Positions 8,742 to 46,170 are shown, numbered from the stretch's first letter. The stretch is DNA of 64,000 nt from Nitrospinaceae bacterium (GCA_021604505.1 BQJC01000004.1:88117-152116); one strand, 5' to 3'. A program made the numbers and translations. The notes: generated by a model from the letters alone, not told the origin.

Positions 8742-8773
8742 CGTTTCGGTGTGCCAAAAAGGATTTTTCTGCC

Positions 8774-31096: not shown

Positions 31097-31867
31097 CTAC
31101 AAGGTTTTTTCAAACAAATTGAGCCCCGTTTTAAAAGCTTCCCGCAGTTGGCTCAATCGTCTGGGGTCTACTGTTAAGCTTTTTGGGTCGAACCAGGGGT
31201 TGGAGAGATATAATTTTCGATTCATTTCAATTTGAATCCAGGGTACCGGATCGTTTCCGTATTTTCTGGTGATATACCCCCCCGCGAAAGGCTCGTTGAT
31301 CGTCACGTCCCCTGCTTTTAAGTGAAAACCTTCCTGAAGGCATTCAGCTAATTTTTGCACCCACTCATCGGAACAACTTTTTCCATAATTATTTCCCAGG
31401 CAAATAAGAGGACGCTCTTTCCCACTATCGGGAGCGATGGGAGGGCCAACAGGCTCCATGGTATGACAATCCAGGCCTAATTTGATCCCGGAATGGGTGT
31501 TCAACAACTCCCGGATTTTTTTGTGGTAAGGGTCGTGGTATTTTTGAATCAGTTCCTCACCGATTGTTTCGTCGAGCAACAACCCAGGAGAATAGATCGG
31601 CTGGCCATGGCAGGTTTTGGTTTTGACAATGCCGTCCGGGTTTTTGGGAGGCCGGTCTGAAGTTTCACGGTTCAAATCGACAAACGCTCTGGCGATGTCC
31701 GTTTCGATAAAAGCCTGAACTTCATCGCGGATCCCGTAGATCTCCCGGGTGAAGGCATCCCCATCCTCAAACAAATCCTTCTGCGTGATACAAACCCGAT
31801 CGGAAATTTCTTGGGGAGTTTTTGTTCCCCCATGGGGAATAGAGATCAGAAATGGAAGTTTAGCCAT
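31097..31867 (-). CDS. N-formylglutamate amidohydrolase family protein
   Basis: ISIPHGGTKTP near the N-terminus, plus GLDCHTM and PWIQIEMNR motifs of the FGase family. 256 aa. Confidence 0.75.
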   Translation of the reverse strand: MAKLPFLISIPHGGTKTPQEISDRVCITQKDLFEDGDAFTREIYGIRDEVQAFIETDIARAFVDLNRETSDRPPKNPDGIVKTKTCHGQPIYSPGLLLDETIGEELIQKYHDPYHKKIRELLNTHSGIKLGLDCHTMEPVGPPIAPDSGKERPLICLGNNYGKSCSDEWVQKLAECLQEGFHLKAGDVTINEPFAGGYITRKYGNDPVPWIQIEMNRKLYLSNPWFDPKSLTVDPRRLSQLREAFKTGLNLFEKTL

Positions 31868-31870
31868 TAT

Positions 31871-33502
31871 TCATGGCCCTTGCGCCGTACCGTCACGCCT
31901 GATTTCGGCAACGCCTTGAAACTGATCTTTGGTCTGGCATTTGAGGACGGCATGAATGGCGCCAAGATAAAAAGAGTAGGCTTCCCTGCGATCAATTTTA
32001 TATCCCACCTGTTCAAGATACCGGATGACCTCGGCGTCAAATCTCTCCGCTTCAATACTCAATTTTCCTCCCACGGTGCAGTGAAACCTGGGTTTTTCCA
32101 TGGCTTCGTCAATGGAAAGATCGGAGTCCACAATATGGGAAAGAAACTGACTCATCGATGAAAAGATACGCTCACTTCCAGGGCTTCCCGCAACCAGCCA
32201 GGGTTTATCCTTGTAAAAGGCGATTATAGGAGCGACCGAACTCCAGGGAATGGCGTTGGGTCTTAAGTAGTAGGGATGAGAAGGGTCAAGCGTGTCGAGA
32301 GAGCTCATATAATTGTTGTATAGAAAGCCCAGGCCCCGTCCCGCTACTTTTGCTCCATAAACCAATTCAATAGACTGAGTAATACCGATGGCGTTGCCTT
32401 CCTTATCCATGACCGAAAGATGCGTGGTGTCATTGGCCAAAGAAAATAATTCCGTCAAGGGAAGAGAGGGGTCGATTCCATCTCGAATGGTGGAAGAAAG
32501 ATTTCTGGCAAACGACTGACTCAGAATTTTTCTATCATCCGGTAATTGCGGATAGATGTTTGGATCGAAAGGACGTTCTTTATGATTCAACAGCCCCTTT
32601 CTAAAAATCTCCGCCATGAAATGATAGGCCTGCGCGCTTCTACTCTTCAATACTTTGGAAGGCAGGTTTTTTAAAATTTGCAAAACCAGTAACAACGTTC
32701 TACCTGCCCCGGGAGGCGGGCTGGTAAACACCTTGATCTTCCGGTAATTTCTGCTGATCGGTTTTCTTTCAACCGGCCAGGGAATCAAGGCCAGGTCTTC
32801 AGCGCGTAAAAACCCTTCGTGAAACCGCATATCCTCATCAATGCGTTTCGCAATATCCCCCGTGTAAAATGATTTCACCCCGTGCCGGGACAGATGCTCC
32901 AATAACTGCGCCAGGTCTTCCTGTACAAATCGCTCTCCCACAGGATAAGGGGTTTGACCGTCTTTTAAAAAGTATTTGGCTCCCGACAGAGAATCCATGA
33001 GCAGGAAGTTGTCAGTTTCCCGGATTTGCAGATCATGCTGAAGTTGGGTGATCGCGTACCCTTCACGGGCGATACGAATCGCCGGCTCCAAAATTTGTGA
33101 CCATTCCAGTTTTCCATAACGAAAATTCAAATGGCCAAGAACAGCAGGGGTGCTGGGAACGGTCGTGGCCTTATAACCTCGGAACCTTTGGGTCTTCTTA
33201 TCAATGCGGTCCATATGAGCAAGAGAAGGAACGCGGCTCGAGCCATCCAAAGCAATGGTCCTTTCATCGATATGCAAAATAGCCATGGACTGGCCTCCAA
33301 GGCCGCTGGCTTGCGGCTCACACACGCTCAATGCAAAAGCGGCGGCGCAGGCGGCATCAATGGCATTGCCGCCTCTGCGAAGCATTTCCACCCCCGCTTC
33401 CGTCGCTTCAGGAAAAGCGGTGGAGACCATGCCTCCTGACGAGGTGGCGCATTTTCCATCTTCCGTGGGAGAAAAACTACTTTCAATATTATCCAGTTTC
33501 AT
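31871..33502 (-). CDS. ggt: Gamma-glutamyltransferase family protein with no signal peptide
   Basis: Autoprocessing/nucleophile motif NDTTHLSVMDKEGNAIGITQSIE, and GSPGSERI. The N-terminus has no hydrophobic leader. Confidence 0.85.
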   Translation of the reverse strand: MKLDNIESSFSPTEDGKCATSSGGMVSTAFPEATEAGVEMLRRGGNAIDAACAAAFALSVCEPQASGLGGQSMAILHIDERTIALDGSSRVPSLAHMDRIDKKTQRFRGYKATTVPSTPAVLGHLNFRYGKLEWSQILEPAIRIAREGYAITQLQHDLQIRETDNFLLMDSLSGAKYFLKDGQTPYPVGERFVQEDLAQLLEHLSRHGVKSFYTGDIAKRIDEDMRFHEGFLRAEDLALIPWPVERKPISRNYRKIKVFTSPPPGAGRTLLLVLQILKNLPSKVLKSRSAQAYHFMAEIFRKGLLNHKERPFDPNIYPQLPDDRKILSQSFARNLSSTIRDGIDPSLPLTELFSLANDTTHLSVMDKEGNAIGITQSIELVYGAKVAGRGLGFLYNNYMSSLDTLDPSHPYYLRPNAIPWSSVAPIIAFYKDKPWLVAGSPGSERIFSSMSQFLSHIVDSDLSIDEAMEKPRFHCTVGGKLSIEAERFDAEVIRYLEQVGYKIDRREAYSFYLGAIHAVLKCQTKDQFQGVAEIRRDGTAQGP

Positions 33503-35691
33503 AAATCGAAATTCTTGGAAGATTGATAAATGAGGTAAGCAAGAAGAACGCCCCGGTCAATGAGGCTGTCGCGAACGACGTGCTCGTTATTGGAGCCATA
33601 AGCGCCTGTAACCGGACCAAATCCATCAAGAGCCGGAACACCCTCTGCTACATTTGCCATATAGGAAACCATACTGTTCTCAGATTTTTTAACCCTGACT
33701 TCCAGTAACTTAGCCATTTTTTTGATCTTCTCGAAAAACTTAAGATTTTTTTCGGTTTCCAAAAAGGGCTTTCTTTGCGCTCCCTTGGTGACATGGACCT
33801 TGATGTTATCTTGCGGTTTGGCGGCAAATATCAGATTGACCTGCTCCCCCAGCCTTTTTCTCTGGTCTAACGTACGATAGCGGATGACAAATGATAATGC
33901 GGCATGATAGGTGGGCTGGTCTTCCATTCCCTTCGTCTGCAATCCTGTTATGGTGGTAAAAATTCCATCCTGCTCGGAATTTAATTTCCTCAACGCGTTA
34001 ATTTTTTGAGACGAAAAAAGTATGGGGTCGCTGACCTCAGAGGAAGATTTTAAACCCTGCTTATTCTGTGTCCGGTTGATTTCAATCTCATACCTTAAAG
34101 TCCCGGAGCAGGATGTCATGATCTCGCCACTCAAACCCGCGCCCCTCAATCCAACGACATAATTCGATTTTTTAGAAAGCTCCTCAATGACCGGCTTCGA
34201 GGACCGCTCGCCCATCGATTCATCCGTAATCAACAGGATTCCACACTTGACCCTTTTTAAGGTCCGCGTGTACCGCAATGCTTTAATAGCGCCCAACAAA
34301 ACGGCAATGCCGCCTTTTCCTCTGGCCACTCCGGTTCCGTATAAACGACCCTTTTCCTCATTGAAAGAACTGTAATCTTCAAAATCCACCGGGTTGTCCA
34401 GATTGCCAACCACAAGAATATCGTTGGTCTCTTCCATGTGATTGGTAAGATACAGAATATTTCCGAATTCCGCCCGTGAATACACTTGACGATGAAATCC
34501 AATAGCACTCAATTTATTGGCAACCCAATGGCCCAGGGAATTGATGCCCTCGATATTTTGCACAAAGGAGTTAATATCCACCATCTTCTCAAGGTCATCT
34601 TCCATGGTTTGAAGGTTTCCACGCAGATGACTTCTCAAGCGAATCCGAAGCGGGTCCTTTTTGGTTTTCGTTTCAGGCTCTTCAACAGCTATTTGATCTA
34701 TTTGCTGACCGCCAAAATAACGTTCCACCGCCACATCCAGCATTCTGTTCACCATGGAATCATAAGTGTAGCCTGCTACCTTGGCGGCATGAACATAAGA
34801 GCCGGTCCGGCCAAGACTGGCCATCGAGTTCAACTCCAGAATATATAAGTTTCCGTCCTTATCCATGCGAAAATCCACCCGGCAAAAATCATAAATCCCC
34901 AGAACACGGAATGTCTCCTTGGTCAAACGGCGAATTTCTTCACTCACTTTTTCATCGATCTGGGATGGGCATATTTTCCCCTTAGGTTTTTTAAGCTTGT
35001 CTTCAAGGCTTTGAATCGCGTCCGGGTCCCCTTCGAGATCAATTTCCAATACAGGGAAAATCTCAGGATCCCGGTTGCCCAATAATCCCACCGCAAACTC
35101 CCTTCCAGGAATGAACTGTTCGACTAAGATAGGCTGTTTAAACTGCTCTACCAGATCGGCGATAGCCGTCTTTAAAGAAGGCAGGTCGTGGATGACCTGG
35201 ATGCCCATAGAAACCGCTTCCATCTTTGGCTTGGTGATCACGGGAAACGGCAAATCATCGGGGATCTGTTCGGCGTCATAAAAAACCCAGTACGGCGCTG
35301 TGGGGAGTCCTGCCGCGTGGATCATTACTTTCGTGGTGACTTTATCAAGCGCCACCCCATGACCCGCGGGACTCGACCCCACATAGGGGACCCCAAGCAT
35401 TTCAAGCAGGGAGGGGATATGGGTATAACGGCTGACTCCCTGAATACCGTATGCCATGTTAAAAACCATGCCGGGTTGTTCCCCTTGAACGACCCGCGGC
35501 ATAAAATCCTGCAGTTGCTCGATGACATTGATGTTTCCATCAATGACGCGTACGTTGTGGCCGCCTTTTTCTAAGGCGGATGCAACCATCTCAACTGTTT
35601 TCGGGTTATAAGTTTCCTGATTCTGCATTCCAAAAACGTTGAGGACGCCTTCATTATCTTTAGGTTTATTGTAAATGACCGCGACTTTCAT
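33499..35691 (-). CDS. Fusion protein: D-Ala-D-Ala-ligase-like ATP-grasp domain (N) plus M20 peptidase-like domain (C)
   Basis: N-terminal half: MKVAVIYN..., ITKPKMEAVSMGI, CRVDFRMDKDGNLYILELNS (ATP-grasp). C-terminal half aligns by eye to the M20 motifs, e.g. YGTGVARGKGG and ILLITDESMG. 4-nt overlap with ggt. Confidence 0.75.
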   Translation of the reverse strand: MKVAVIYNKPKDNEGVLNVFGMQNQETYNPKTVEMVASALEKGGHNVRVIDGNINVIEQLQDFMPRVVQGEQPGMVFNMAYGIQGVSRYTHIPSLLEMLGVPYVGSSPAGHGVALDKVTTKVMIHAAGLPTAPYWVFYDAEQIPDDLPFPVITKPKMEAVSMGIQVIHDLPSLKTAIADLVEQFKQPILVEQFIPGREFAVGLLGNRDPEIFPVLEIDLEGDPDAIQSLEDKLKKPKGKICPSQIDEKVSEEIRRLTKETFRVLGIYDFCRVDFRMDKDGNLYILELNSMASLGRTGSYVHAAKVAGYTYDSMVNRMLDVAVERYFGGQQIDQIAVEEPETKTKKDPLRIRLRSHLRGNLQTMEDDLEKMVDINSFVQNIEGINSLGHWVANKLSAIGFHRQVYSRAEFGNILYLTNHMEETNDILVVGNLDNPVDFEDYSSFNEEKGRLYGTGVARGKGGIAVLLGAIKALRYTRTLKRVKCGILLITDESMGERSSKPVIEELSKKSNYVVGLRGAGLSGEIMTSCSGTLRYEIEINRTQNKQGLKSSSEVSDPILFSSQKINALRKLNSEQDGIFTTITGLQTKGMEDQPTYHAALSFVIRYRTLDQRKRLGEQVNLIFAAKPQDNIKVHVTKGAQRKPFLETEKNLKFFEKIKKMAKLLEVRVKKSENSMVSYMANVAEGVPALDGFGPVTGAYGSNNEHVVRDSLIDRGVLLAYLIYQSSKNFDL

Positions 35692-35708
35692 CTAGTTTTC
35701 CTCGAATA

Positions 35709-36437
35709 TTAAAAGGTCCATTCCATCACTTCCAAATGCTCTCTAAGCTGGGACACTGTTTTGAATTTTTTCACAATCATACTCTTTTTAAGGCCGCAAC
35801 AGATATATTTAATTGCCTGCGGATGCTTGGAATAATTTTTGCTTCCGCCTAAAACTTCATAGAAAATATTAATCAATCCAATCAAATCATCCCTAAGAAA
35901 CTCAGGTCGAGCGGCTCCATAGTGAAATAAATCTAAAAGCTTGAGTTCGAAGTTGAGACCAAATTTATTGACAATAATATTATCGCTGTGCAAATCGCCG
36001 TGATATTCATTTCTAAGATGAATTTCCTCAATTCCCTTTGCCAAAGCATGCAAAAGATGCAGGGCTTTATAGGGGTCCAGTTTCTTCCCCGGAAAATTAA
36101 GAAGAAATTCCGACAACAGAACTCCTTCCACATATTCGGAAACTAAAACAGTGACGGGAAATTTATGATAGATGATTTCCTCTTGAGTGTGATACTGGAT
36201 GAGCAAAGAGCATTGGCGTAGTTTGTGTAATTTCTGGGCATATCTTTTTGCGGATTTACCCCGCAGGTTCCTTTGCGGATAAAATAATTTTGCCGCTTTT
36301 TCAATTCCAGTTTTAACTTCATAAATTTTATAAACTTCTCCCTCCCAGCCAGAACCCAACCTGGAAAGGACCTTGTATTTTCCAGCAATGGACTTGCCAG
36401 CAGGCAAATTGAATTCTGTTATTTTTGAAGGGTTCAT
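35709..36437 (-). CDS. Minimal protein-kinase-like protein (242 aa)
   Basis: Gly-rich loop LGSGWEGEVY, AAKLF (VAIK-like Lys), catalytic loop YHGDLHSDNIIV, and LLDLF (DFG-like). First gene of the operon. Confidence 0.65.
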   Translation of the reverse strand: MNPSKITEFNLPAGKSIAGKYKVLSRLGSGWEGEVYKIYEVKTGIEKAAKLFYPQRNLRGKSAKRYAQKLHKLRQCSLLIQYHTQEEIIYHKFPVTVLVSEYVEGVLLSEFLLNFPGKKLDPYKALHLLHALAKGIEEIHLRNEYHGDLHSDNIIVNKFGLNFELKLLDLFHYGAARPEFLRDDLIGLINIFYEVLGGSKNYSKHPQAIKYICCGLKKSMIVKKFKTVSQLREHLEVMEWTF

Positions 36438-36802: not shown

Positions 36803-37306
36803 ATGATAAGGGCCGCTTTAAGAAAAAAAATGAAAAAAATTAAACTTCCATTGGTTATTTTACTTTGCGGGCTATCCGTTTCTTTAGCCGTTGCAGGCAC
36901 AGATGAAGCACAAACCGCTCCCACTCTCCCCACTTTAAAGCCAACCGTTTCCTTAAACACCCCTAAGGAAATGCAAAAGAATCCCGATAGGCCGAAAATA
37001 AGCCAGGATTTGCTGAACCTCTACAAAACCTATCAAGCACAGAATGACCGCTCAAACGGCAGGAAAACAAACGGAAGCCTGGAACAGCCAATGCTTCCGG
37101 TTTCTGACGGGTTTGTGACCATCGACGCCATCGCGTCGAATGATACCAAGGCCCTGAAAACCGATATGGAGACATTGGGTTTAAAAAACTCCGCCAGCTT
37201 TGGGCGTGTGGTTTCCGGCCTTTTCCCCATTTCCCAAATCTCTAAGCTCTCCGACTTGAAGAGCCTGAAATATGTCAGAGCTTCTTCAGCAATAACCCAC
37301 AACTGA
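36803..37306 (+). CDS. Secreted stand-alone homolog of the giant protease's N-terminal prodomain
   Basis: Signal peptide. Residues about 95-167 (VSDGFVTIDAIASND...LGLKNSASFGRVVSGLFPIS) align at about 45-50% identity with residues about 93-160 of the giant protein (VSDSYVVIDAIAVSD...IGLKNAGIFGKMVSGLLPIS). Confidence 0.7.
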   Translation: MIRAALRKKMKKIKLPLVILLCGLSVSLAVAGTDEAQTAPTLPTLKPTVSLNTPKEMQKNPDRPKISQDLLNLYKTYQAQNDRSNGRKTNGSLEQPMLPVSDGFVTIDAIASNDTKALKTDMETLGLKNSASFGRVVSGLFPISQISKLSDLKSLKYVRASSAITHN

Positions 37307-37338
37307 GCTTTTAAGAAAACGTTTTTTGATATTTGGAG

Positions 37339-40300
37339 TCAACAAGGGTTGGGAACGTATTCCATATGCAGAAGAGGCGCGGCGCTGGGAACCCCGTTGA
37401 AAGATTCAGCGGCTCGTTCTCCGGTTCCACTGATAATGACCGCCAGCGAATTGCCGCTCACCCATCCCGGCAGGTTAATGATTTCCTGAATGACGGAAGC
37501 GATATCCGGAGTTCGCTGATCCAACCCGGCTTCTCCCACCGAAGTCCACGAAGGAACCCCAGGCCAGCCCACCGAGGCTCCCGTCAGCGGCCGGTCGGTG
37601 ATGTTGTTGCTTGCACTGGTAAACGTCGCGGCGTTGGCCGCAGCCTGCCCGCGCACCGTGAGCGACGTGGTCCCGGAATGGCTTTCATCCGCCTGAAACT
37701 GAACATAGGCATTGGTGATCGTCGAACAACCGGGGACACTCACCCCGTTAAAGCGCAGGCCAATGGTCTGGTTGTCTCCGGCATCAAAGGTCATTTCGAG
37801 ATCGGAGCTGGTCAGCGACATACTTCCCGAGGCCCGTTCTTCCGCATCGTCCGTACTCGATGAAACACGGATGTCGAGAATCGTAGAAGCTGAAGGTGGA
37901 CCCGTGGAGACAACGATTTTGACACTGCTGCCTGCCGCAGCACTGGCTCCGCCTATCGGATTCTGGCTGATCACATCTCCCGCAGAAACCGTAGCGCTGC
38001 TCTGCGTTGAAACCGTTCCAACATCCAGTCCCGCACCGACAATCGCCGCTTCCGCAGCAGCTTGCGTCAGACCCACAACGTCAGGGACCGACACCAATAC
38101 CGGTGGCGTGCTTGAAAATTCCACATACAATAAAGGTGCGGCGCCGGGAACCCCGTTGAAGGATTCAGCAACCCGCTCTCCGGTCCCGCTGATAATGACC
38201 GCCAGCGAATTGCCACTCACCCATCCCGGCAGGTTGATGATTTCCTGAATGACCGATGCTATATCCGGTGTCCGCTGATTTGGCCCGGCTTCTCCCACCG
38301 AATTCCATGCAGGAACAGAAGGCCAGGCCACCGACGCTCCCGTTAACGACCGGTCGGTGATGTTGTTGGTTTCACTGGTAAACGTCGCGGCGTTGGCCGC
38401 CGCCTGCCCGCGAACCGTGAGCGACGTGGACCCGGAATGGCTTTCATCCGCCTGAAACTGAACATAGGCTTTGGTGATCGTTGCACCTGCGGGAATATTC
38501 ACCCCGTTAAAGCGCATACCGATGGTCTGGTCGCCTCCGGCATCAAAGGTCAGCTCGAGATCGGAGCTGGTCAGCGACATATCCCCAGAGGCCCGTTCTT
38601 CCGCATCGTCCGAACCCGATGCAACCCGAATATCGAGAACCGTTGTCCCCGAACTCTCGGTCACAGTGATGCTCAACTCGTCGAAGACAGTGAACTCGCC
38701 GTCAAAGGCAGTCAGGCGCAAAACGTAGGTCCCCGGCAAATTGAAACTGACGGTCGTGTCTTCCGCATTGGCGTTGGCAAAGGTCGCCGTTCCGCCCGCA
38801 GGCCCGCTTTCCTGATTCCAGGTAATCGTCGGAGTCGCCTGCACCAGGCCGTCGTCGGTGACCGTTCCATTCAGTGTCGCACTTGCCGGAAGAACAATCG
38901 ACTGGTCCGGACCGGCGTTGACCGTGGGGGGAGTGTTGGACGGCGGGGTGACAACCTCCACGGTGATCGTGTCCTGTCCCGGCAGGCCGCCGCTGTCCGT
39001 CACTGAAGCGGTGATGGTGTGTATTCCTGTCGATAACCCAGCCGTTGCAAAGGAAACCGCCTGCACTCCACCGTTGAGAACCCCATCCAGGTTGGAAGTC
39101 CACGTGAGATTCGACGACAGGTTACCGTCCTCAAAATCATTGGCCGTGCCGCTGAAAGTGATGCTGGCCCCCGCGTTGAAAGTCAAACCGTCCGCTGGTG
39201 CGTTGATCCCCACCGTGGGGGGCTGGTTGCCCTGACTGGAACCGTATTCCACATGCAGAAGAGGCGCGGCGCTCGGAACCCCGTTGAAAGATTCAGCGGC
39301 TCGCTCTCCGGCCCCGCTGATAATGACCGCCAACGAATTGCCACTCGCCCATCCCGGCAGGTTGATGATTTCCTGAATGACCGATGCTATATCCGGAGTC
39401 CGCTGATCGACACCTGCTTCTCCCACCGAATTCCATGCAGGAACCCCAGGCCAGGCCACCGACGCTCCTGTCAGGGGCCGGTCGGTGATGTTGTTGGTTT
39501 CACTGGTAAACGTCGCGGCGTTCGCCGCAGCCTGCCCGCGCACCGTCAGCGACGTGGACCCGGAATGGCTTTCATCCGCCTGGAACTGAACATAGGCTTT
39601 GGTGATCGTTGCGCCTGCGGGAATATTCACCCCGTTAAAGCGCATGCCGATGGTCTGATCGCCTCCGGCATCAAAGGTCAGCTCGAGATCGGAGCTGGTC
39701 AAAGACAGATCCCCTGAGGACCGTTCTTCCGCATCGTCCGAACCCGATGCAACCCGAATATCGAGCACATCCTGGCTGGGACTTTCAGTTGCCGTGATGC
39801 TCAACTCGTCAAAGATAGTGAACTCGCCGTCGAAGGCAGTCAGGCGTAAAACGTAGGTCCCCGGCAAATTGAAACTGACGGTCGTGTCTTCCGCATTGGC
39901 GTTGGCAAAGCTCGCCGTTCCACCTGCAGGACCGCTTTCCTGATTCCAGGTAATCGCCGGAGTCGCCTGCACCAGGCCGTCGTCGGTGACCGTTCCATTC
40001 AGCGTCGCACCCGCCGGAAGAACAATCGACTGGTCCGGACCGGCGTTGACCGTTGGCGGAGCATTGACCGCGACGGCGGGGTTGACGGTGACGGTCAACT
40101 CATCGAAAGCCGTCAACTCGCCATCAAACGCGGTCAATCGGAGGACATACGTACCAGCTTCGGAGAAACTGACGGTCGTGTCCTCAGCATTGAAATTGGC
40201 AAAGGTAGCCGTTCCACCCGCAGGCCCGCTCTGCTGGCTCCAGGTAATCGTCGGAGTTGTCTGTATCTGGCCGTCGTCGGTAACGGTTCCATCTAAAATT

Positions 40301-43300
40301 GCGTTAGCCGGAAGGGTGATCGTCTGGTCAGGCCCTGCGTCTGGCACCGGAGCACTATTGGCATTGCCACCAATATTACACGTGTCTGAACCTGTATCCG
40401 TAAATTCAAACCCCGCCTCAGGAAGGAATTCCCAATCATAGCCATTGTCTCTTAATGTTAATTTGATAATACCCAGTGAGGAATTGTATTTAACCTCGCT
40501 ATTGGGGATTGGATTGTCAAAATTGTAAAGGGATCTCCCGCCGGTACCGACGACAAAGGCCCGGATGCCGTTCGGGTCAAGATTGCTGTTTGAATCCTGT
40601 TTCGCAAACCGCTCGTAAGTATGATCGTGACCTGCAATAACAATATCCGCCCCGGCGATGTATAGTTCTTGCCAAAATTCAATCGTTCGCGTTGAACTTC
40701 CATGACGTCCTGAGCTGTAGTACGGACGGTGCCAATAAGCAAGAATGCAGGATCCGGAATGCGCCGCTAGATCTTGTTTCAACCACTCCACTTGTGCGGA
40801 ACCCGCCTCAAAATCAACTTCCGAATCGAGTGAAATGATGTGCCAGTTTCCGAGGTCGTAGCTGTAAAAAAGTTGTTGTGTATTTCCAGGAAAGACGCAA
40901 TCATTGGCTGTAGGACAGAAATAATCCAGATAATCCGCCGCACCTGCAACCCCGTAGTCATGGTTGCCGGGCGAGGGAAAGGTTCGCGAACGGTGTCTGC
41001 CCCACGTCGGGTCGTATTTCTGCAGAAAATCAGCTGCTGTGCCGTTGTCATAGGCATTGTCCCCTGCAGTGAATACAATGGCGCCAGGATCATTGGCAAC
41101 CACGTTATCGATGATTTGTGCGGTTGCCTCGGGCCCCCCTGTTATGGAACCATCATCGGCAATATCCCCCGCGCCGACCAGCGTATAAGAAGTAATTTGA
41201 CCGGGATCAAGCGTTGTCGCGCTTGCGGGAAGACTTGCTTCTGAAAGATTATTCGAACTATCCCGTGCAACAACTTCATACGTATAACTCGTAATCGTCG
41301 AAAGGTCCGTATCAAGAAACGAAGTTGCCGATGTTGAACCTATAAATGCGCTGGGCGTGCAACCGAAACCTTGACAGCGAAACACATCGTATCCAGCAAC
41401 CGCAATGTTGTCCGTTGAAGCACTCCATGTAAGGTTGATGCGGGAGGATAAAACACCCGTTCCCGTTAACCCCGTGGGAACGGAGGGGGGTTCTGAATCA
41501 GTCACTGCTAAAAATTCCACATGCAATAAAGGTGCGGCGCCGGGAACCCCGTTGAAGGATTCAGCCGCTCGCTCCCCGGTCCCGCTGATAATGACCGCCA
41601 GAGAATTGCCACTCGCCCATCCCGGCAGGTTGATGATTTCCTGAATGACCGATGCTATATCCGGAGTCCGCTGATTTGGCCCGGCTTCTCCCACCGAATT
41701 CCATGCAGGAACCCCAGGCCAGGCCACCGACGCTCCCGTTAACGACCGGTCGGTGATGTTGTTGGTTTGACTGGTAAACGTCGCGGCGTTGGTCGCAGCC
41801 TGCCCGCGAACCGTGAGCGACGTGGACCCGGAATGGCTTTCATCCGCCTGAAACTGAACATAGGCTTTGGTGATCGTTGCGCCTGCGGGAATATTCACCC
41901 CGTTAAAGCGCATGCCGATGGTCTGGTCACCTCCGGCATCAAAGGTCAGCTCGAGATCGGAGCTGGTCAGTGACATATCCCCTGAGGCCCGTTCTTCCGC
42001 ATCGTCCGAACCCGATGCAACCCGAATATCGAGCACATCCTGGCTGGGACTTTCAGTTAAAGTGATGCTCAAATCGTCGAAGACAGAGAACTCGCCATCG
42101 AAGGCAGTCAGGCGCAAAACGTAGGTCCCCGGCAAATTGAAACTGACGGTCGTGTCTTCCGCATTGGCGTTGGCAAAGGTCGCCGTTCCACCCGCAGGCC
42201 CGCTTTCCAAATTCCAGGTAATCGTCGGAGTCGCCTGCACCAGACCGTCGTCGGTGACCGTTCCATTCAGCGTCGCACCCGCCGGAAGAACAATCGACTG
42301 GTCCGGACCGGCGTTGACCGTGGGGGGAGTGTTGACTGGCGGCGGACCAGAACTTTGGCTAAAAAAGATGAAGGCCGAGCCGGAATCGTTTTCGCCGTTG
42401 TTATCGTCTTGATAAGCTCCCACGATGACATCGTCGATGCCGTCGCCATTGTAATCGCCTGCTGACGATATAGAAAAACCAAACGAATCATTTTCGTTCT
42501 GACCATTCAAAATCACGTCCGAATCTGCGTCGGCCCTTAATGTCAACTGAGCTCCAGCGGGGTTGCGGCCGAAAAAGATGAAAGCGCTGCCAGAGTTACA
42601 AAGTTCGCTTAGGCAATCCGGGTTGTTATCATCGGAAGGTACTCCGACGATAACGTCGCCTAATCCGTCGCCGTTGAAGTCACCCGCCAATGACACCCTA
42701 GAACCAAAGTTGTTCTGTGCGTTCTGTCCATTGAGGATCACATCCGCGTCAGCATCCGCTCGTAAAAACAACTGAACACCTTCCGGATCACGGCCGAAAA
42801 AAATAAAGGCACTACCGGAATTGATTTTACCGTTATTATCGTCATTATGAGCGCCAACGATAATATCATCTACACCGTCGCCGTTGAAGTCGCCCGCTGA
42901 GGACACTGAAGACCCGAAAAAGTCATCTGTACTCTGGCCCCACAAGATCATGTTCGCGTGGCTATTCGCCCCTAGGGTCAATTGTCCAACCGGTTGGCGG
43001 CCGAAAAAGATAAAGGCGCTGCCAGATTGAGTTTGGCCGTTATTACTGGCAAAAGCGGCTCCGACGATGACGTCGTCCTTTCCATCGCCATTGAAATCAC
43101 CCGCCGGGGATACAGATCCGCCAAACCTACCTAATAGATTTTGACCATTGATGATCACATCGACATCGGCATCCGCACTTAAAGTCAACTGAACACCCGC
43201 ACCCGGATCACGGCCCAAAAATATGGAGGCACTCCCGTTATTAGCTAACCCGATACTATCGTCCAATGGAACTCCGACGATGACATCACTCTTGCCGTCA

Positions 43301-46170
43301 CCATTGAAGTCCCCAGTTGAGGAGAACACACCACCAAATCGACCACCTGCAGTTTGGCCATTCAAGATCACGTCCGCATCCGCATCGGCCACTAATGTCA
43401 ACTGAACGCCCCCTGTGCTACGGCCGAAAAAGATGAACGCACTGCCAGAGTCACAAAATTCGTTTGTACAATCCGGGCTGTTATCATCATTTGATGCCCC
43501 TACCATGACGTCGTCTTTGCCGTCACCATTGAAGTCCCCCACAAACGAAACTGTTAGACCAAACAAATCATTTGCACTCTGGCCACTTAGGATCACATCG
43601 GCATCGGCCTCTGATCTTAGCCCAAGCTGAACGCCAACGAGGTTGCGGCCAAAAAATATGAAGGCGCTATTCGATAAATTGGAACCGACGATTATATCGT
43701 CAATGCCATCGCCATTAAAATCCCCGGCCGATGACACGGAATTACCAAATCGATCCCCTGCGTTTTGACCATCGAGGATGACATTGGCGTCACTATCCAC
43801 CGTTAGAATGGGCGATGTCTTAACCGTAACTGTTTGGGTTGCCGTTCCGGTATTGCCCGAAGAGTCCGTTGCCGAATACGTCACTATGGTAACGCCAGCT
43901 GGGAAACCACCTGCAGGGGCATCGTTGATTGGTATGATCGTTCCATCCACCCCGTCAATGGCGGTGACTGTGCCCAAGGCAACTGGTGTCAATGTCCCCG
44001 TCGCAGCCACCACTAAATCTGGAAGATAGACAGTAACCTCTGGCAGGGTGGTATCGACAATCGTAATGGTTTGCGTGGCTGTTGAGGAATTACCCCTCTC
44101 ATCGGTGGCGGTCCAGATAACCGGGGTAACACCCACCGGGAACTGGATATAGCCTATCCGGTGGGGGGGTGGCGCATTGTTGGTGATAGTAATATCAGCC
44201 GGTGCACTCACATTATCAGTTGCCGTTGCTTGACCAATAAACACACCCGTCTGTATACCGGTTGCCTCAACCGTTAAATCCGCAGGAACCGTTATTACAG
44301 GAGGTATAGAATCAATTTCAAGACCATCAATAACTGTAATGGCCGGAACGGCCTGCACCAATCCATAACCCGTGGCAAAATCGACACCGGTGTCAAACCC
44401 TGCAGTTCCAGGATCATCCATATCGATGGCAGTCGATTCCAGAGCCAAATAAATTTCTGCTGGAAATAATCCAGGTTTATTTTGAAACAACAAAGCGGCA
44501 AGCCCCGCGACGTGAGGAGCGGCGGCGGAGGTCCCGAAAAAATCCGGGAACCCGTCTCCATTACTGTCGGGACTGCCAAAAAAAGTGGTGCTGCCACCAT
44601 CCGGGCCGACAATATTCGGTTTGAATCGAATTTCAGGCGAAGCCAATGGGTTCCCTGCGAGGTCGAACAGAATAGGGACGCCGCCGATAGAGGAAAACGC
44701 TTCCAATTGCGGCGGGTTGACTCCAAACTCCGGGGTATTGATAAAATTTGCCGCTCCTACCGCTTCCGCTCCCAAGGCGTTGGCGTGCCCGTAGGAAGTG
44801 GGGCTCGCTGTATTAAACTGATTGACCGTTGAGTTGCCGAACTGGACATATTTGATTTTACCGGGATTCGCTCCCCCACCATTGGTGATGACAATATTGA
44901 AAGTCTGCGTGGCTCCCGTGTTTTGAAAAAACAGGACTTCTACCGGGTCCAGACCAATATTAGCTTCCGCACTGGCCGCAACCACCGTAGTGGCAGCGGC
45001 ATTGGCCAGGTAGATATCCACATCGTTGGGAGAACCGGCCCCACCCGCCGAGGCCGCCGGAGAGTCCCATTGCAGGGCAATCAAAAGGGTTCCCCCGCCC
45101 GGAATCGTCACCTGCTGAAATATATCCACCCCGCCGCCCGGATCAAAATCGTGGACCTCAAAAACTTCCGGGCCGATGGTGATCGTCTGCCCTCCCCGGA
45201 ACACATCCTCATAGCTGTTCCGGGATTGGTTCCCCGCCGCTGAAAAATACGCAACTCCCGTTCCATTCACCTGATCGACGGCCTGGGCGATGATTCCGTC
45301 TTGAAACATCGGTTCGGCAAAATAAATGATGTCATCGACAATAACTTGCGCACCGGCATTGGCGAGGTCAATAATGCCTTGCGCAAAGTTGGCCTGACCA
45401 TTGAAGGCTGTGTGAAAAGCCAGCGAAGCGCCCGGCGCTACGTCATGCACGATCTGCAGCATGCCCCGGCCTTCGTCGATACTGCTAGCACATGAGGCGG
45501 TGTCATCCAGAACGGTCACACCTCCCGCAGGAAGGTCCCCGGATGAAATGTCCCCCGCCGCCCCGCCGAGGCAATCGTAACTATCCGAAAGAACCCCGAC
45601 CGTCACGCCCGACCCATCCACGCCGAAAGTCGTGCGCGCAATATCTGCCCGCATGGAAAGGTCCCCCTGACTGGTCACCGACCCTGCGTTGGTGGCCGCC
45701 ATGGACGGACGCGCAAAAGTCAGATAATGGCATTGCGGTAGTTGATCGACTGCCGAAATGGGTAAGAGGCCTGAGACCATCTTTCCAAAAATTCCGGCAT
45801 TTTTAAGGCCGATTCCTTCCAACTCCTCTTTCAAGTCGTTTGGATCCGAAACGGCGATGGCATCGATCACCACATAGCTATCAGACACCTTGACCATGGA
45901 GTTTTGCGGCCTGAATTTCCCTTTGAAGCTGAAGGACTTGTTCTTTCTAAAGGACTGGAAGTCTTCGTAAACCTCTCGCAAATGTTTTCCGACCTTGGGT
46001 CTTATCGATGGTCTTGACTTTATATCTTTTTGAGAGATTTCGAGGCGGGTTTGCGGGTCGTTTTCCCTTTTACTGTTATCGGCATGAACGGACAGGGAGG
46101 GCAGAATCGTTAAAAATAAAGCCAGTATTAAAACAGTCAGCCCGGTTTTTGAATTTCTGCCGATTCTCAC
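37339..46170 (-). CDS. Giant secreted multidomain protein (2,943 aa). Order: signal, prodomain, S8 subtilase, 2x HYR, 7x FG-GAP, PKD+X, FN3, metallophosphoesterase, PKD', PKD+X, Ig-like, PKD+X, PASTA, X
   Basis: One uninterrupted 8.8-kb ORF. The motifs are listed in the domain features below. All plus-strand ORFs inside it are antisense shadows. Confidence 0.85.
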   Translation of the reverse strand: MRIGRNSKTGLTVLILALFLTILPSLSVHADNSKRENDPQTRLEISQKDIKSRPSIRPKVGKHLREVYEDFQSFRKNKSFSFKGKFRPQNSMVKVSDSYVVIDAIAVSDPNDLKEELEGIGLKNAGIFGKMVSGLLPISAVDQLPQCHYLTFARPSMAATNAGSVTSQGDLSMRADIARTTFGVDGSGVTVGVLSDSYDCLGGAAGDISSGDLPAGGVTVLDDTASCASSIDEGRGMLQIVHDVAPGASLAFHTAFNGQANFAQGIIDLANAGAQVIVDDIIYFAEPMFQDGIIAQAVDQVNGTGVAYFSAAGNQSRNSYEDVFRGGQTITIGPEVFEVHDFDPGGGVDIFQQVTIPGGGTLLIALQWDSPAASAGGAGSPNDVDIYLANAAATTVVAASAEANIGLDPVEVLFFQNTGATQTFNIVITNGGGANPGKIKYVQFGNSTVNQFNTASPTSYGHANALGAEAVGAANFINTPEFGVNPPQLEAFSSIGGVPILFDLAGNPLASPEIRFKPNIVGPDGGSTTFFGSPDSNGDGFPDFFGTSAAAPHVAGLAALLFQNKPGLFPAEIYLALESTAIDMDDPGTAGFDTGVDFATGYGLVQAVPAITVIDGLEIDSIPPVITVPADLTVEATGIQTGVFIGQATATDNVSAPADITITNNAPPPHRIGYIQFPVGVTPVIWTATDERGNSSTATQTITIVDTTLPEVTVYLPDLVVAATGTLTPVALGTVTAIDGVDGTIIPINDAPAGGFPAGVTIVTYSATDSSGNTGTATQTVTVKTSPILTVDSDANVILDGQNAGDRFGNSVSSAGDFNGDGIDDIIVGSNLSNSAFIFFGRNLVGVQLGLRSEADADVILSGQSANDLFGLTVSFVGDFNGDGKDDVMVGASNDDNSPDCTNEFCDSGSAFIFFGRSTGGVQLTLVADADADVILNGQTAGGRFGGVFSSTGDFNGDGKSDVIVGVPLDDSIGLANNGSASIFLGRDPGAGVQLTLSADADVDVIINGQNLLGRFGGSVSPAGDFNGDGKDDVIVGAAFASNNGQTQSGSAFIFFGRQPVGQLTLGANSHANMILWGQSTDDFFGSSVSSAGDFNGDGVDDIIVGAHNDDNNGKINSGSAFIFFGRDPEGVQLFLRADADADVILNGQNAQNNFGSRVSLAGDFNGDGLGDVIVGVPSDDNNPDCLSELCNSGSAFIFFGRNPAGAQLTLRADADSDVILNGQNENDSFGFSISSAGDYNGDGIDDVIVGAYQDDNNGENDSGSAFIFFSQSSGPPPVNTPPTVNAGPDQSIVLPAGATLNGTVTDDGLVQATPTITWNLESGPAGGTATFANANAEDTTVSFNLPGTYVLRLTAFDGEFSVFDDLSITLTESPSQDVLDIRVASGSDDAEERASGDMSLTSSDLELTFDAGGDQTIGMRFNGVNIPAGATITKAYVQFQADESHSGSTSLTVRGQAATNAATFTSQTNNITDRSLTGASVAWPGVPAWNSVGEAGPNQRTPDIASVIQEIINLPGWASGNSLAVIISGTGERAAESFNGVPGAAPLLHVEFLAVTDSEPPSVPTGLTGTGVLSSRINLTWSASTDNIAVAGYDVFRCQGFGCTPSAFIGSTSATSFLDTDLSTITSYTYEVVARDSSNNLSEASLPASATTLDPGQITSYTLVGAGDIADDGSITGGPEATAQIIDNVVANDPGAIVFTAGDNAYDNGTAADFLQKYDPTWGRHRSRTFPSPGNHDYGVAGAADYLDYFCPTANDCVFPGNTQQLFYSYDLGNWHIISLDSEVDFEAGSAQVEWLKQDLAAHSGSCILAYWHRPYYSSGRHGSSTRTIEFWQELYIAGADIVIAGHDHTYERFAKQDSNSNLDPNGIRAFVVGTGGRSLYNFDNPIPNSEVKYNSSLGIIKLTLRDNGYDWEFLPEAGFEFTDTGSDTCNIGGNANSAPVPDAGPDQTITLPANAILDGTVTDDGQIQTTPTITWSQQSGPAGGTATFANFNAEDTTVSFSEAGTYVLRLTAFDGELTAFDELTVTVNPAVAVNAPPTVNAGPDQSIVLPAGATLNGTVTDDGLVQATPAITWNQESGPAGGTASFANANAEDTTVSFNLPGTYVLRLTAFDGEFTIFDELSITATESPSQDVLDIRVASGSDDAEERSSGDLSLTSSDLELTFDAGGDQTIGMRFNGVNIPAGATITKAYVQFQADESHSGSTSLTVRGQAAANAATFTSETNNITDRPLTGASVAWPGVPAWNSVGEAGVDQRTPDIASVIQEIINLPGWASGNSLAVIISGAGERAAESFNGVPSAAPLLHVEYGSSQGNQPPTVGINAPADGLTFNAGASITFSGTANDFEDGNLSSNLTWTSNLDGVLNGGVQAVSFATAGLSTGIHTITASVTDSGGLPGQDTITVEVVTPPSNTPPTVNAGPDQSIVLPASATLNGTVTDDGLVQATPTITWNQESGPAGGTATFANANAEDTTVSFNLPGTYVLRLTAFDGEFTVFDELSITVTESSGTTVLDIRVASGSDDAEERASGDMSLTSSDLELTFDAGGDQTIGMRFNGVNIPAGATITKAYVQFQADESHSGSTSLTVRGQAAANAATFTSETNNITDRSLTGASVAWPSVPAWNSVGEAGPNQRTPDIASVIQEIINLPGWVSGNSLAVIISGTGERVAESFNGVPGAAPLLYVEFSSTPPVLVSVPDVVGLTQAAAEAAIVGAGLDVGTVSTQSSATVSAGDVISQNPIGGASAAAGSSVKIVVSTGPPSASTILDIRVSSSTDDAEERASGSMSLTSSDLEMTFDAGDNQTIGLRFNGVSVPGCSTITNAYVQFQADESHSGTTSLTVRGQAAANAATFTSASNNITDRPLTGASVGWPGVPSWTSVGEAGLDQRTPDIASVIQEIINLPGWVSGNSLAVIISGTGERAAESFNGVPSAAPLLHMEYVPNPC
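37357..37881 (-). repeat. Fourth, more divergent X-domain copy (D) at the C-terminus, with no PKD partner
   Basis: ILDIRVSSSTDDAEERASGSMSLTSSDLEMTFDAG...LLHMEY. About 87% aa identity to copies A-C by eye. Confidence 0.8.
37900..38091 (-). other. PASTA-like domain of the giant protein
   Basis: VPDVVGLTQAAAEAAIVGAGLDVGTVSTQSSATVSAGDVISQNPIGGASAAAGSSVKIVVSTG matches the PASTA pattern (PDVVG.....A...L...GL......V........G.V..Q.P..G......V.L..S.G). Confidence 0.65.
38116..38934 (-). repeat. Intragenic 819-bp repeat unit C (PKD-like plus X domain)
   Basis: Same length and frame as units A and B. Ends LLYVEF. Confidence 0.85.
39244..40062 (-). repeat. Intragenic 819-bp repeat unit B (PKD-like plus X domain)
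   Basis: Same length and frame as unit A. A diverged extra PKD-like module lies at 40063-40350. Confidence 0.85.
40426..41193 (-). other. Calcineurin-like metallophosphoesterase domain of the giant protein
   Basis: All signature motifs are present: GAGDIAD, AGDNAYDNG, PGNHDY, YWHRP and GHDHTYERF. Confidence 0.8.
41512..42330 (-). repeat. Intragenic 819-bp repeat unit A (PKD-like 98 aa plus X domain 175 aa)
   Basis: Encodes TPPTVNAGPDQSIVLPAGATLNGTVTDDGL... followed by VLDIRVASGSDDAEER...LLHVEF. Roughly 95% DNA identity to units B and C over the stretches I compared by eye. Confidence 0.85.
42355..43803 (-). other. Seven FG-GAP repeats (integrin-alpha-like beta-propeller) in the giant protein
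   Basis: Seven units FG..V...GD(F/Y)NGDG.DD(V/I)(I/M)VG...SGSAFIFFGR. Units 2 and 6 carry an extra Cys pair (NSPDCTNEFC and NNPDCLSELC). Confidence 0.8.
44341..45633 (-). other. Subtilisin-like (S8) peptidase domain of the giant protein
   Basis: Putative triad D196 (GVTVGVLSDS), H242 (EGRGMLQIVHDVAPGA) and S548 (GTSAAAPHVAGLAALL). Oxyanion Asn in SAAGNQ. Confidence 0.8.

What the first reader, a model, noticed from the sequence alone, without database searches (positions are those of the whole stretch)
36803..37306. Stand-alone secreted copy of the giant protease's prodomain, encoded tail-to-tail with it
The 167-aa protein has its own signal peptide. Its C-terminal 70 or so residues align at roughly 45-50% identity with the N-terminal propeptide-like region of the giant subtilase (VSD..V.IDAIA..D...L....E..GLKN...FG..VSGL.PIS). 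The two genes converge with only 32 bp between their stop codons. Subtilase propeptides act as intramolecular chaperones and tight inhibitors. A trans-encoded copy could therefore be a dedicated inhibitor, an immunity factor or a folding helper for the exported protease.
Basis: partly seen in the sequence, partly recalled or inferred. Interest (0 to 1): 0.55.

Follow-up and report, generated by a model that had tools for sequence, protein, structure and literature searches.

The report
Stand-alone copy of a protease prodomain
A small secreted protein encoded next to a giant subtilisin-like protease is a separate copy of that protease's own N-terminal prodomain, and this gene pair recurs across many bacterial phyla, so it is probably a dedicated partner (most likely an inhibitor) of the protease.

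Summary
The small ORF (probably starting at 36830, giving 158 aa) has a signal peptide. Its C-terminal 116 residues match residues 46-161 of the 2943-aa S8 protein at 37% identity (BLASTP E=1e-21), and the last 70 residues match at 45.7%. The stop codons are 32 bp apart.

[quoted passage not shown] The best PDB fold matches are subtilase prodomains (CspB, Tk-subtilisin, BPN'), but their E-values are weak. No sequence method links the domain to Pfam I9 or to any PDB chain.

The small gene is not a one-off. A profile of it finds 1071 representative proteins, and at least 59 of the best 150 are clearly stand-alone, either soluble or carrying a C-terminal membrane anchor. In about 23 of 25 stand-alone genes with readable flanks, from Nitrospinota, Binatia, Syntrophobacteraceae, Rokubacteria, Methylomirabilia and Salinibacter relatives, the gene lies next to an S8 gene of the same clade that keeps its own prodomain. 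It usually sits directly upstream on the same strand, so tail-to-tail is the minority layout. dN/dS is 0.2-0.56.

The most likely function is a trans-acting prodomain mimic that inhibits the neighbouring protease. This is inferred, not shown. Comparable stand-alone mimics are known from eukaryotes (POIA1, PBI2, SPI-1, SUB1-ProM).

The parts
36830..37306 (+). Small gene for the stand-alone prodomain-like protein, 158 aa from the ATG at 36830. An alternative upstream ATG at 36803 gives 167 aa.
   Evidence: ORF list and translation. The NCBI protein P0001 starts at M10. dN/dS against 5 orthologues is 0.2-0.56.
36830..36895 (+). Sec-type signal peptide (MKKIKLPLVILLCGLSVSLAVA), with predicted cleavage after AVA or a few residues later, before the conserved Gln.
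   Evidence: Read from the sequence. The hydrophobic core scores KD 2.6. All six orthologues align a hydrophobic N-terminus followed by an invariant A-Q.
37004..37060 (+). N-terminal helix of the module (KISQDLLNLYKTYQAQNDR). The protease copy has the same helix (KVGKHLREVYEDFQSFRKN).
   Evidence: AF2 helix 59-77 in the small protein and 62-77 in the giant. BLASTP alignment.
37112..37282 (+). [quoted passage not shown]
   Evidence: AF2 pLDDT is 93-98 here, with elements E95-102, H106-115, E119-124, E127-133, H134-142, E146-151. The top Foldseek PDB hits are subtilase prodomains.
37283..37303 (+). Seven-residue C-terminal tail (SSAITHN). It ends within a residue or two of the position matching the predicted prodomain/catalytic-domain junction of the protease (..SMAATN|AGSVTSQGD).
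   Evidence: Alignment. The tail is about as long as the HVAHAY tail of the subtilisin BPN' prosegment; that sequence was verified, and its role in the complex is from established knowledge. The orthologue in L033 also ends in THN*.
37307..37338 (.). 32-bp spacer between the two converging stop codons.
   Evidence: The simple scan found no terminator-like hairpin here.
37339..46170 (-). Giant secreted multidomain S8 protein of 2943 aa. It has a signal peptide, a prodomain-like N-domain and a divergent S8 catalytic domain, followed by HYR, FG-GAP x7, PKD-like, fn3, Metallophos and PASTA domains and four unassigned ~180-aa repeats.
   Evidence: Translation and Pfam scan.
45688..46035 (-). [quoted passage not shown]
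   Evidence: BLASTP. AF2 elements H62-77, E99-106, H110-119, E123-128, E131-137, H138-146, E150-155. The region is present in all 38 aligned family members.
44323..45684 (-). S8 catalytic domain (aa ~163-616) with conserved D196 (LSDS), E233 (DEGRGM, in the place of the canonical His), N314 and S548 (GTSAAAPH).
   Evidence: Pfam PF00082, PDB sequence hits around the Ser motif, conserved columns (E233, N314, S548 invariant, D196 in at least 90%), motif counts in 120 homologues, Foldseek hits to subtilases.

Best explanation
The small gene encodes a Sec-exported, free-standing paralogue of the N-terminal prodomain-like module of the neighbouring S8 protease. The two genes form a conserved module found in many bacterial phyla. 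The most likely mechanism is that the small protein binds the catalytic domain of the neighbouring protease in the way a cleaved subtilase prodomain does. Its beta-sheet would pack on the enzyme surface and its short C-terminal tail would lie in the substrate cleft. This would keep the protease inactive in the periplasm or at the cell surface until it is released. In short, it would be a dedicated trans inhibitor that mimics the prodomain, possibly with a secondary role in stabilising folding. Shown here: the homology, the predicted fold, the export signal, purifying selection and the conserved gene neighbourhood. Inferred: binding, inhibition and the place where it acts.
For: The homology is far beyond chance (E=1e-21; E=6.5e-27 and 2.7e-36). 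[quoted passage not shown] The small-protein model's best PDB matches are prodomain chains: CspB 4i0w_A (prob 0.99, TMt 0.61), PAM protease 8c4x_B, Tk-subtilisin propeptide 2z58_B (TMt 0.67, rmsd 2.8 A), A. fumigatus Alp1 8u45_A, PC1/3 9fid_E and BPN' prosegment 3cnq_P (TMt 0.66, rmsd 2.2 A). The 620-aa protease model best matches subtilases crystallised with their prodomains: CspA/CspC, ProN-Tk-SP 3afg, fervidolysin 1r6v and pro-subtilisin E 3whi. The small protein stops within a residue or two of the position aligned to the predicted processing junction, leaving a 7-residue tail after the last strand, as in a cleaved prosegment. The gene is under purifying selection (dN/dS 0.2-0.56). Neighbourhood: the stand-alone gene is adjacent to a same-clade S8 gene in the window, L001, L002, L003, L004, L006, L008, L009, L010, L012, L013, L014, L015, L016, L017, L019, L021, L026, L028, L029, L031, L032 and L033. 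The family also has membrane-tethered forms (21 of the best 150 representatives) and proteins made only of tandem copies (P0130, P0139). These architectures are typical of inhibitors. Stand-alone prodomain mimics encoded beside subtilase genes are proven potent inhibitors in eukaryotes, for example SUB1-ProM (PMC6993865).
Against: No binding or inhibition was measured, and no co-fold could be run. The tools returned no model coordinates, so how the cis prodomain docks on the catalytic domain could not be inspected. The Foldseek E-values for the small domain are weak (0.02-0.4), and other ferredoxin-like folds (RRM, ACT) are mixed in among the hits. No sequence-level link to I9 was found. The partner protease has Glu where the catalytic His should be, so its activity is itself unproven. 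Some S8 genes of the clade have no stand-alone copy within 6 kb (L018, L024, L025, L034), and one stand-alone copy has no S8 gene within 6 kb (L020).
Confidence: 0.5

Rival explanations
1. Trans-acting folding helper (intermolecular chaperone). The small protein would template or stabilise folding of the huge protease's catalytic domain in the periplasm, as isolated subtilisin prosegments can do in vitro or as the Lif foldase does for lipase, and would then be released or degraded.
For: It has the same fold and homology evidence as the best explanation. Subtilase prodomains are both chaperones and inhibitors (established knowledge; PMC6993865). The small gene usually lies directly upstream on the same strand, which suggests co-expression. 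Membrane-anchored forms recall the membrane-anchored Lif foldase (the Lif comparison is from my own knowledge).
Against: Every partner S8 protein examined keeps its own cis copy of the module (17 of 17 pairs). The folding need therefore seems already met in cis. Proteins made only of tandem copies (P0130, P0139) look like multi-headed inhibitors rather than foldases.
Confidence: 0.2
2. Non-inhibitory docking or tethering partner. The module would be a protein-protein interaction domain, and the free or membrane-anchored copy would hold the protease at the envelope or pair with the protease's own N-domain without blocking catalysis.
For: 21 of the best 150 representatives consist of the domain, a long Pro/Ser/Thr/Asp-rich linker and a C-terminal transmembrane helix. 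The module has an extra N-terminal helix not seen in classical I9 prodomains. There is no sequence link to I9.
Against: The top structural matches are subtilase prodomains, and the module sits exactly where a prodomain sits. The window's protein has no membrane anchor, and it ends close to the predicted processing junction.
Confidence: 0.12
3. Functionless leftover of a partial duplication of the 5' end of the protease gene.
For: The small protein covers the signal peptide plus the prodomain, which is what a 5' duplication would copy. A quick NJ tree suggests such duplications happened more than once, for example L019 small/S8 at 69% and L009 at 60-61%.
Against: dN/dS is 0.2-0.56 at dS up to about 1.5. 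Orthologues at 46-55% identity keep intact reading frames and domain boundaries in different gene orders. At least 59 distinct stand-alone clusters exist among the best 150 representatives. In the Nitrospinae-type clade, small proteins group with each other (46-89% identity), not with their neighbours' prodomains (30-38%).
Confidence: 0.03

Closest known systems
[quoted passage not shown]
   Same: [quoted passage not shown] It is encoded in a conserved locus next to subtilase genes and is most similar to the prodomain of one of them. [quoted passage not shown]
   Different: SUB1-ProM is eukaryotic. Here the module is bacterial, often looks operonic, forms its own sequence family with an extra N-terminal helix, has membrane-anchored and tandem variants, and partners an S8 clade that lacks the canonical His motif. 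Inhibition is untested here.
MEROPS family I9 / Pfam PF05922 (subtilase propeptides and the free-standing inhibitors POIA1, yeast PBI2 and Arabidopsis SPI-1)
   Same: The fold class and the position before the S8 catalytic domain are the same. There is a free-standing copy with a short C-terminal tail.
   Different: There is no detectable sequence relationship. No Pfam hit was found in 95 members at E<=10, no PDB hit with profile A3 at E<=10, and hhalign against I9 seeds gave probability 0.07%. By contrast, classical I9 members find each other at E=0.003-0.2.
Csp germination subtilases (CspB/CspA/CspC) with retained prodomains
   Same: These are the best structural matches both for the protease N-terminal 620 aa and for the small protein (4i0w_A, 9pr8, 9pr9, 6mw4). 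In Csp proteins the prodomain stays bound after cleavage (my own knowledge). CspC is deposited as a pseudoprotease (6mw4).
   Different: Sequence identity is only 11-15%, the organisms and biological roles differ, and no separate prodomain gene is part of the Csp system.
Spi, the SpeB-prosegment-like inhibitor encoded next to speB in Streptococcus pyogenes (from my own knowledge; not checked with the tools here)
   Same: It is a bacterial free-standing paralogue of a protease's own prosegment, encoded adjacent to the protease gene, and acts as an inhibitor.
   Different: It partners a cysteine protease (C10), not S8. Spi is cytoplasmic, whereas the protein here is exported.
Periplasmic inhibitors of secreted proteases, such as AprI/Inh for serralysin-type metalloproteases (my own knowledge)
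   Same: These are signal-peptide-bearing small proteins encoded beside the gene of an exported protease and are thought to protect the periplasm.
   Different: They are unrelated in fold and are not derived from the protease's prodomain.

Membership tests
MEROPS I9 / Pfam PF05922 Inhibitor_I9 (subtilase propeptide family) | Significant sequence or profile match to the family | tested here: not met
   No Pfam hit for the small protein or for the giant's N-domain at E<=1. PF05922 is absent from the scan of all 95 members of A3 at E<=10. Profile A3 against all PDB sequences gives 0 hits at E<=10. hhalign of A3 against 5 I9 prosegments gives probability 0.07%.
MEROPS I9 / Pfam PF05922 Inhibitor_I9 (subtilase propeptide family) | [quoted passage not shown] | tested here: met
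   AF2 gives this order of elements in the small protein (pLDDT 93-98) and in the protease N-domain. The Foldseek top hits are prodomain chains with TMt 0.55-0.68, but E-values are only 0.02-0.4 and other ferredoxin-like folds also appear. The feature is met at the level of prediction only.
MEROPS I9 / Pfam PF05922 Inhibitor_I9 (subtilase propeptide family) | The cis copy lies between the signal peptide and the S8 catalytic domain | tested here: met
   In the giant, the signal peptide is at aa 1-30, the module at 46-161 and the catalytic domain from about 163. All 38 aligned homologues have the same layout.
MEROPS I9 / Pfam PF05922 Inhibitor_I9 (subtilase propeptide family) | The cis copy is autoprocessed and the free domain inhibits the mature enzyme tightly | not testable with these tools
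   This needs N-terminal sequencing of the mature protease and inhibition kinetics.
Stand-alone prodomain-like subtilase inhibitors encoded beside their target (SUB1-ProM type) | Separate gene with its own export signal, made of little more than the prodomain-like module | tested here: met
   The protein ends 7 residues after the last strand.
Stand-alone prodomain-like subtilase inhibitors encoded beside their target (SUB1-ProM type) | Conserved adjacency to the subtilase gene in related genomes | tested here: met
   About 23 of 25 stand-alone genes with readable flanks are adjacent to an S8 gene. L020 is not, and L005 has no S8 start in the 435 bp of sequence downstream of the small gene.
Stand-alone prodomain-like subtilase inhibitors encoded beside their target (SUB1-ProM type) | Selective inhibition of the neighbouring subtilase | not testable with these tools
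   A biochemical assay is required.
Private steric chaperone / foldase supplied in trans (Lif-like logic) | The client enzyme lacks its own prodomain and depends on the trans partner | tested here: not met
   All 17 analysed partner S8 proteins carry their own copy of the module.
Peptidase family S8 (for the partner protein) | Asp-His-Ser catalytic triad plus the oxyanion Asn | tested here: inconclusive
   The Ser motif GTSAxxPH is in 120/120 homologues, the Asp motif LSDS in 112/120 and [SA]AGN in 117/120. No HGT motif is present; instead the conserved DEGR[AG]M motif (104/120) places Glu233 at the N-terminus of the helix that corresponds, by the order of secondary-structure elements, to the His64 helix. 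The Pfam match covers only profile positions 75-288. hhalign against BPN' aligns only the Ser region.

The most novel reading that the evidence does not exclude
A large, so far uncurated bacterial system. It pairs a big clade of exported subtilisin-fold enzymes that carry Glu instead of the catalytic His with free-standing paralogues of their own prodomain. These paralogues come as soluble, membrane-tethered and multi-headed forms, arose by repeated duplication, and act as dedicated trans inhibitors or regulators. This would be the bacterial counterpart of the eukaryotic I9-type stand-alone inhibitors, but in a sequence family of its own.
Probability: 0.4. Interest if true: 0.65.

Novelty: new variant of a known kind. 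Interest (0 to 1): 0.55.

Why it matters
Free-standing prodomain mimics that inhibit subtilases are established in fungi, plants and apicomplexan parasites. The literature searches run here found no bacterial example for S8 enzymes. If the inference holds, this domain has no Pfam or NCBIfam model yet has over a thousand representative sequences, and it defines a widespread two-gene protease/anti-protease module in environmental bacteria, including nitrite-oxidising Nitrospinaceae. That would give annotators a handle on many 'hypothetical' small secreted proteins. It would also supply natural, specific inhibitors for a poorly understood S8 clade, and a system for asking why an enzyme that already has a cis prodomain needs a second copy in trans. 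The partner clade's Glu-for-His active site is a separate question that the same experiments could address.

Tried and rejected
- **Chance similarity.** Rejected.
- **Pseudogene or duplication remnant.** Rejected on dN/dS, conservation across gene orders and family size.
- **I9 membership by sequence.** Tested four ways and not found.
- **NCBIfam.** No model hits the stand-alone proteins.
- **The search for related loci.** The six close orthologues (A1) found nothing in genome contigs. A4, an alignment of 18 stand-alone proteins, gave 21 loci.
- **Mapping the Asp/His positions onto subtilisin BPN'.** hhalign, including a forced full-length alignment, gave reliable alignment only around the catalytic Ser. 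The Glu-for-His assignment therefore rests on motif conservation and the order of predicted secondary-structure elements.
- **Promoter/terminator scan around the gene.** At background level and uninformative.
- **Literature searches.** Searches for DVUA0089, Nitrospina subtilases and Ser-Glu-Asp S8 enzymes found nothing relevant.
- **Lipoprotein reading of 'LLCG' in the signal peptide.** Considered and set aside, because the -1 and -2 residues do not fit a lipobox and the orthologues lack the Cys.

Full report
**1. Observation**

The window carries a 167-aa ORF at 36803-37306(+) and a 2943-aa ORF at 37339-46170(-). Their stop codons face each other across 32 bp.

BLASTP of the small protein against the first 621 residues of the giant gives 37% identity over 116 residues, E=1e-21 (small 53-166 against giant 46-161). 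Over the last 70 residues the ungapped identity is 45.7%, and over the core it is 55%.

The small protein begins with a basic stretch, a hydrophobic core and an AVA|G site (read from the sequence). NCBI annotates it from the second ATG (36830, 158 aa) as a hypothetical protein of a Nitrospinaceae MAG, and the orthologues support that start.

**2. What the shared module is**

Neither Pfam nor NCBIfam recognises the small protein or the matching part of the giant.

AlphaFold2 with a 95-sequence alignment models the small protein with pLDDT 93-98 over residues 90-150. The elements are a helix at 59-77, then strand 95-102, helix 106-115, strand 119-124, strand 127-133, helix 134-142 and strand 146-151. 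A model of giant residues 1-620 shows the same elements at 62-77 and 99-155, directly before the catalytic domain.

[quoted passage not shown] Foldseek of the small model against the PDB ranks prodomain chains at the top:
- CspB 4i0w_A
- PAM protease 8c4x_B
- Tk-subtilisin propeptide 2z58_B
- A. fumigatus Alp1 8u45_A
- PC1/3 9fid_E
- BPN' prosegment 3cnq_P

Their TM-scores are 0.55-0.68 on the target length. The E-values are only 0.02-0.4, and RRM- and ACT-type ferredoxin-like folds are interleaved. The 620-residue model best matches subtilases solved with their prodomains attached: CspA/CspC, ProN-Tk-SP, fervidolysin and pro-subtilisin E.

At the sequence level there is no link to I9:
- No PF05922 hit in any of 95 members at E<=10.
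- No PDB hit with the family profile at E<=10.
- hhalign probability of 0.07% against an I9 seed alignment.

Classical I9 members, by contrast, detect each other. So the module works like, and sits like, a subtilase prodomain. It is a sequence family of its own and carries an extra N-terminal helix.

**3. The small gene is a conserved gene, not debris**

The word-indexed search of 5.8 billion proteins found only five close relatives (46-55% identity). Pairwise dN/dS among the six genes is 0.2-0.56, with dS up to about 1.5.

A profile of the six proteins, searched against 1.84 billion representative proteins, finds 1071 proteins at E<=1e-3 and 406 at E<=1e-10. The best 150 were classified by what follows the domain:

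| Class | Count |
|---|---|
| Continue into the S8 catalytic domain | 46 |
| Stand-alone with a short non-S8 tail | 38 |
| Domain, then a Pro/Ser/Thr/Asp-rich linker, then a C-terminal transmembrane helix | 21 |
| End at the domain boundary (like the window's protein, or cut by a contig end) | 36 |
| Several copies of the domain | 3 |
| Other | 6 |

This ranking is biased towards stand-alone forms, because the query profile was built from them. Even so, at least 59 distinct 50%-identity clusters are clearly free-standing.

**4. The pairing with the protease is conserved**

I read the flanks of every stand-alone gene I could reach.

- **Close orthologues.** In L001, L002 and L004 the small gene lies 255-328 bp upstream of an S8 gene on the same strand, and that S8 protein carries its own copy of the module. 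In L003 the small gene converges on an ORF whose C-terminus matches the C-terminal repeat of the giant, the same tail-to-tail layout as in the window. In L033, which carries the closest S8 homologue (71% identity), the small gene lies downstream of the S8/PASTA/Metallophos ORFs on the same strand and again ends in THN*. L005 has too little flank to judge.
- **Distant members.** In L006 and L010 the small gene is 63-76 bp upstream of an S8 gene. L008 is convergent with an RTX-bearing S8 gene. In L009 a membrane-anchored form lies directly upstream of an S8 ORF that the gene caller missed.
- **GTDB species genomes.** A scan returned 21 loci from Syntrophobacteraceae, Binatia, Rokubacteria, Methylomirabilia, Thermodesulfobacteriota, Dehalococcoidia, Acidoferrum, Contendobacter and Salinibacter/Salinivenus. 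HMM-based classification shows a stand-alone gene next to an S8 gene in L012-L017, L019, L021, L026, L028, L029, L031 and L032. Some of these S8 ORFs are cut by a contig end. L020 has a stand-alone copy with no S8 gene within 6 kb. L018, L024 and L025 have an S8 gene with no stand-alone neighbour, and so does L034 among the close homologues.

Overall, about 23 of 25 stand-alone genes with readable flanks are paired. Every partner protease keeps its own cis copy. The usual layout is the small gene directly upstream on the same strand. The convergent layout of the window is a minority form, seen in the window, L003 and L008.

**5. Evolution**

In the Nitrospinae-type clade the small proteins group with each other (46-89% identity), and the protease prodomains group with each other (51-77%). 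Identity between the two groups is only 30-38%. The split therefore predates these lineages.

In other lineages the small protein is closest to its own neighbour's prodomain: L009 at 60-61%, L017 at 61% and L019 at 69%. A quick NJ tree shows lineage-specific sister clades of cis and trans copies. This suggests either repeated duplication of the 5' part of the protease gene or concerted evolution. The tree has no support values, so this is only an indication.

**6. Mechanism**

The free copy has the predicted fold and the boundaries of a cleaved prodomain. It ends 7 residues after the last strand, within a residue or two of the position aligned to ..ATN|AGSVTSQGD in the protease. That junction lies about 35 residues before the Asp196 strand, comparable to the 31 residues between the processing site and Asp32 in subtilisin BPN' (the BPN' numbering is established knowledge).

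In known complexes the prodomain sheet packs on two surface helices and its C-terminal tail occupies the substrate cleft, which makes it a tight competitive inhibitor (PMC6993865). The most economical reading is therefore a trans-acting prodomain mimic. It would be exported by Sec to the same compartment as the protease precursor and would hold the enzyme inactive there.

A pure foldase role is less likely, because the cis prodomain is always retained. The membrane-tethered and tandem-copy relatives fit inhibitors better than chaperones. None of this was measured. My rough probabilities are 0.5 for inhibitor, 0.2 for chaperone, 0.12 for a non-inhibitory docking partner and 0.03 for no function.

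**7. Comparison with known systems and novelty**

The concept is known from eukaryotes: POIA1, PBI2, SPI-1, TgMIC5 and SUB1-ProM. SUB1-ProM is also encoded beside subtilase genes. Two full-text searches found no bacterial S8 example. From memory, Spi/SpeB is the closest bacterial analogue, but it belongs to a cysteine protease.

Membership of I9 by sequence is not met. Membership of the functional class 'stand-alone prodomain-like partner encoded beside its subtilase' is met for every feature that could be tested here. I therefore rate the finding as a new variant of a known kind. It is a new, widespread and uncurated bacterial sequence family with new architectures, attached to an unusual S8 clade.

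**8. Caveats**

- The protease model is only moderately confident (mean pLDDT 67.6).
- No coordinates or multimer predictions were available.
- The fold-search statistics for an approximately 60-residue ferredoxin-like core are inherently weak.
- Most loci come from MAGs and short contigs.
- The partner's catalytic competence is uncertain, because Glu233 replaces the canonical His.

Noticed in passing
window 44323-45684 (-), giant protein aa 196-548: The S8 clade of the giant protein lacks the canonical HGT histidine motif. A conserved DEGR[AG]M motif (104 of 120 homologues) puts Glu233 at the start of the helix that corresponds, by the order of predicted elements, to the His64 helix of subtilisin. 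The Asp (LSDS), Asn ([SA]AGN) and Ser (GTSAxxPH) motifs are kept, and H340 and H462 are also invariant. This could be a Ser/Glu/Asp enzyme on a subtilisin scaffold or a pseudoprotease.
   Followed up: partly
window 37339-42600 (-), roughly giant aa 1190-2943: Four copies of an approximately 180-aa module (VLDIRVASGSDDAEER...ESFNGV..APLLHVEY) have no convincing Pfam family. The last copy ends the protein (...YVPNPC*). The same C-terminal module ends the convergent ORF in L003 659-907(-).
   Followed up: no
proteins P0130 and P0139: Two proteins are built only of tandem copies of the prodomain-like module, with no S8 domain. P0130 (460 aa, 3 copies) is from the eukaryotic alga Vitrella brassicaformis (CEM14786.1). 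P0139 (1327 aa) has at least 5 copies. Both look like multi-headed inhibitors.
   Followed up: partly
proteins P0135, P0144, P0148, P0151, P0152 and others; L009 8001-8633: A subfamily has a signal peptide, the domain, a long Pro/Ser/Thr/Asp-rich linker and a C-terminal transmembrane helix (21 of the best 150 representatives). In L009 such a gene sits directly upstream of an S8 ORF (8420-10933) that the gene caller missed, and a second same-clade S8 gene with a T9SS tail lies 4 kb downstream.
   Followed up: partly
L033 6001-12529: In the contig with the closest S8 homologue (71% identity), the giant gene appears split into separate S8, PASTA (x3) and Metallophos ORFs. This could be frameshifts or a truly modular version. 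The small prodomain gene follows them on the same strand.
   Followed up: no
L001 8023-9715 (-): In the 834-kb JGI contig, a relaxase and a NikA/MobC-like gene lie immediately upstream of the small-gene/S8 pair, and a 2930-aa RTX/SPM protein lies beyond them. This hints that the pair sits on or next to a mobile element there.
   Followed up: no
window 31097-36437 (-): Upstream of the small gene, on the opposite strand, is a run of genes unrelated to the finding: a truncated-looking Ser/Thr kinase-like ORF (242 aa), an ATP-grasp/D-Ala-D-Ala ligase fused to an M20 peptidase (730 aa), a gamma-glutamyltranspeptidase and an N-formylglutamate amidohydrolase. Together they look like a peptide or gamma-glutamyl metabolism cluster.
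   Followed up: no
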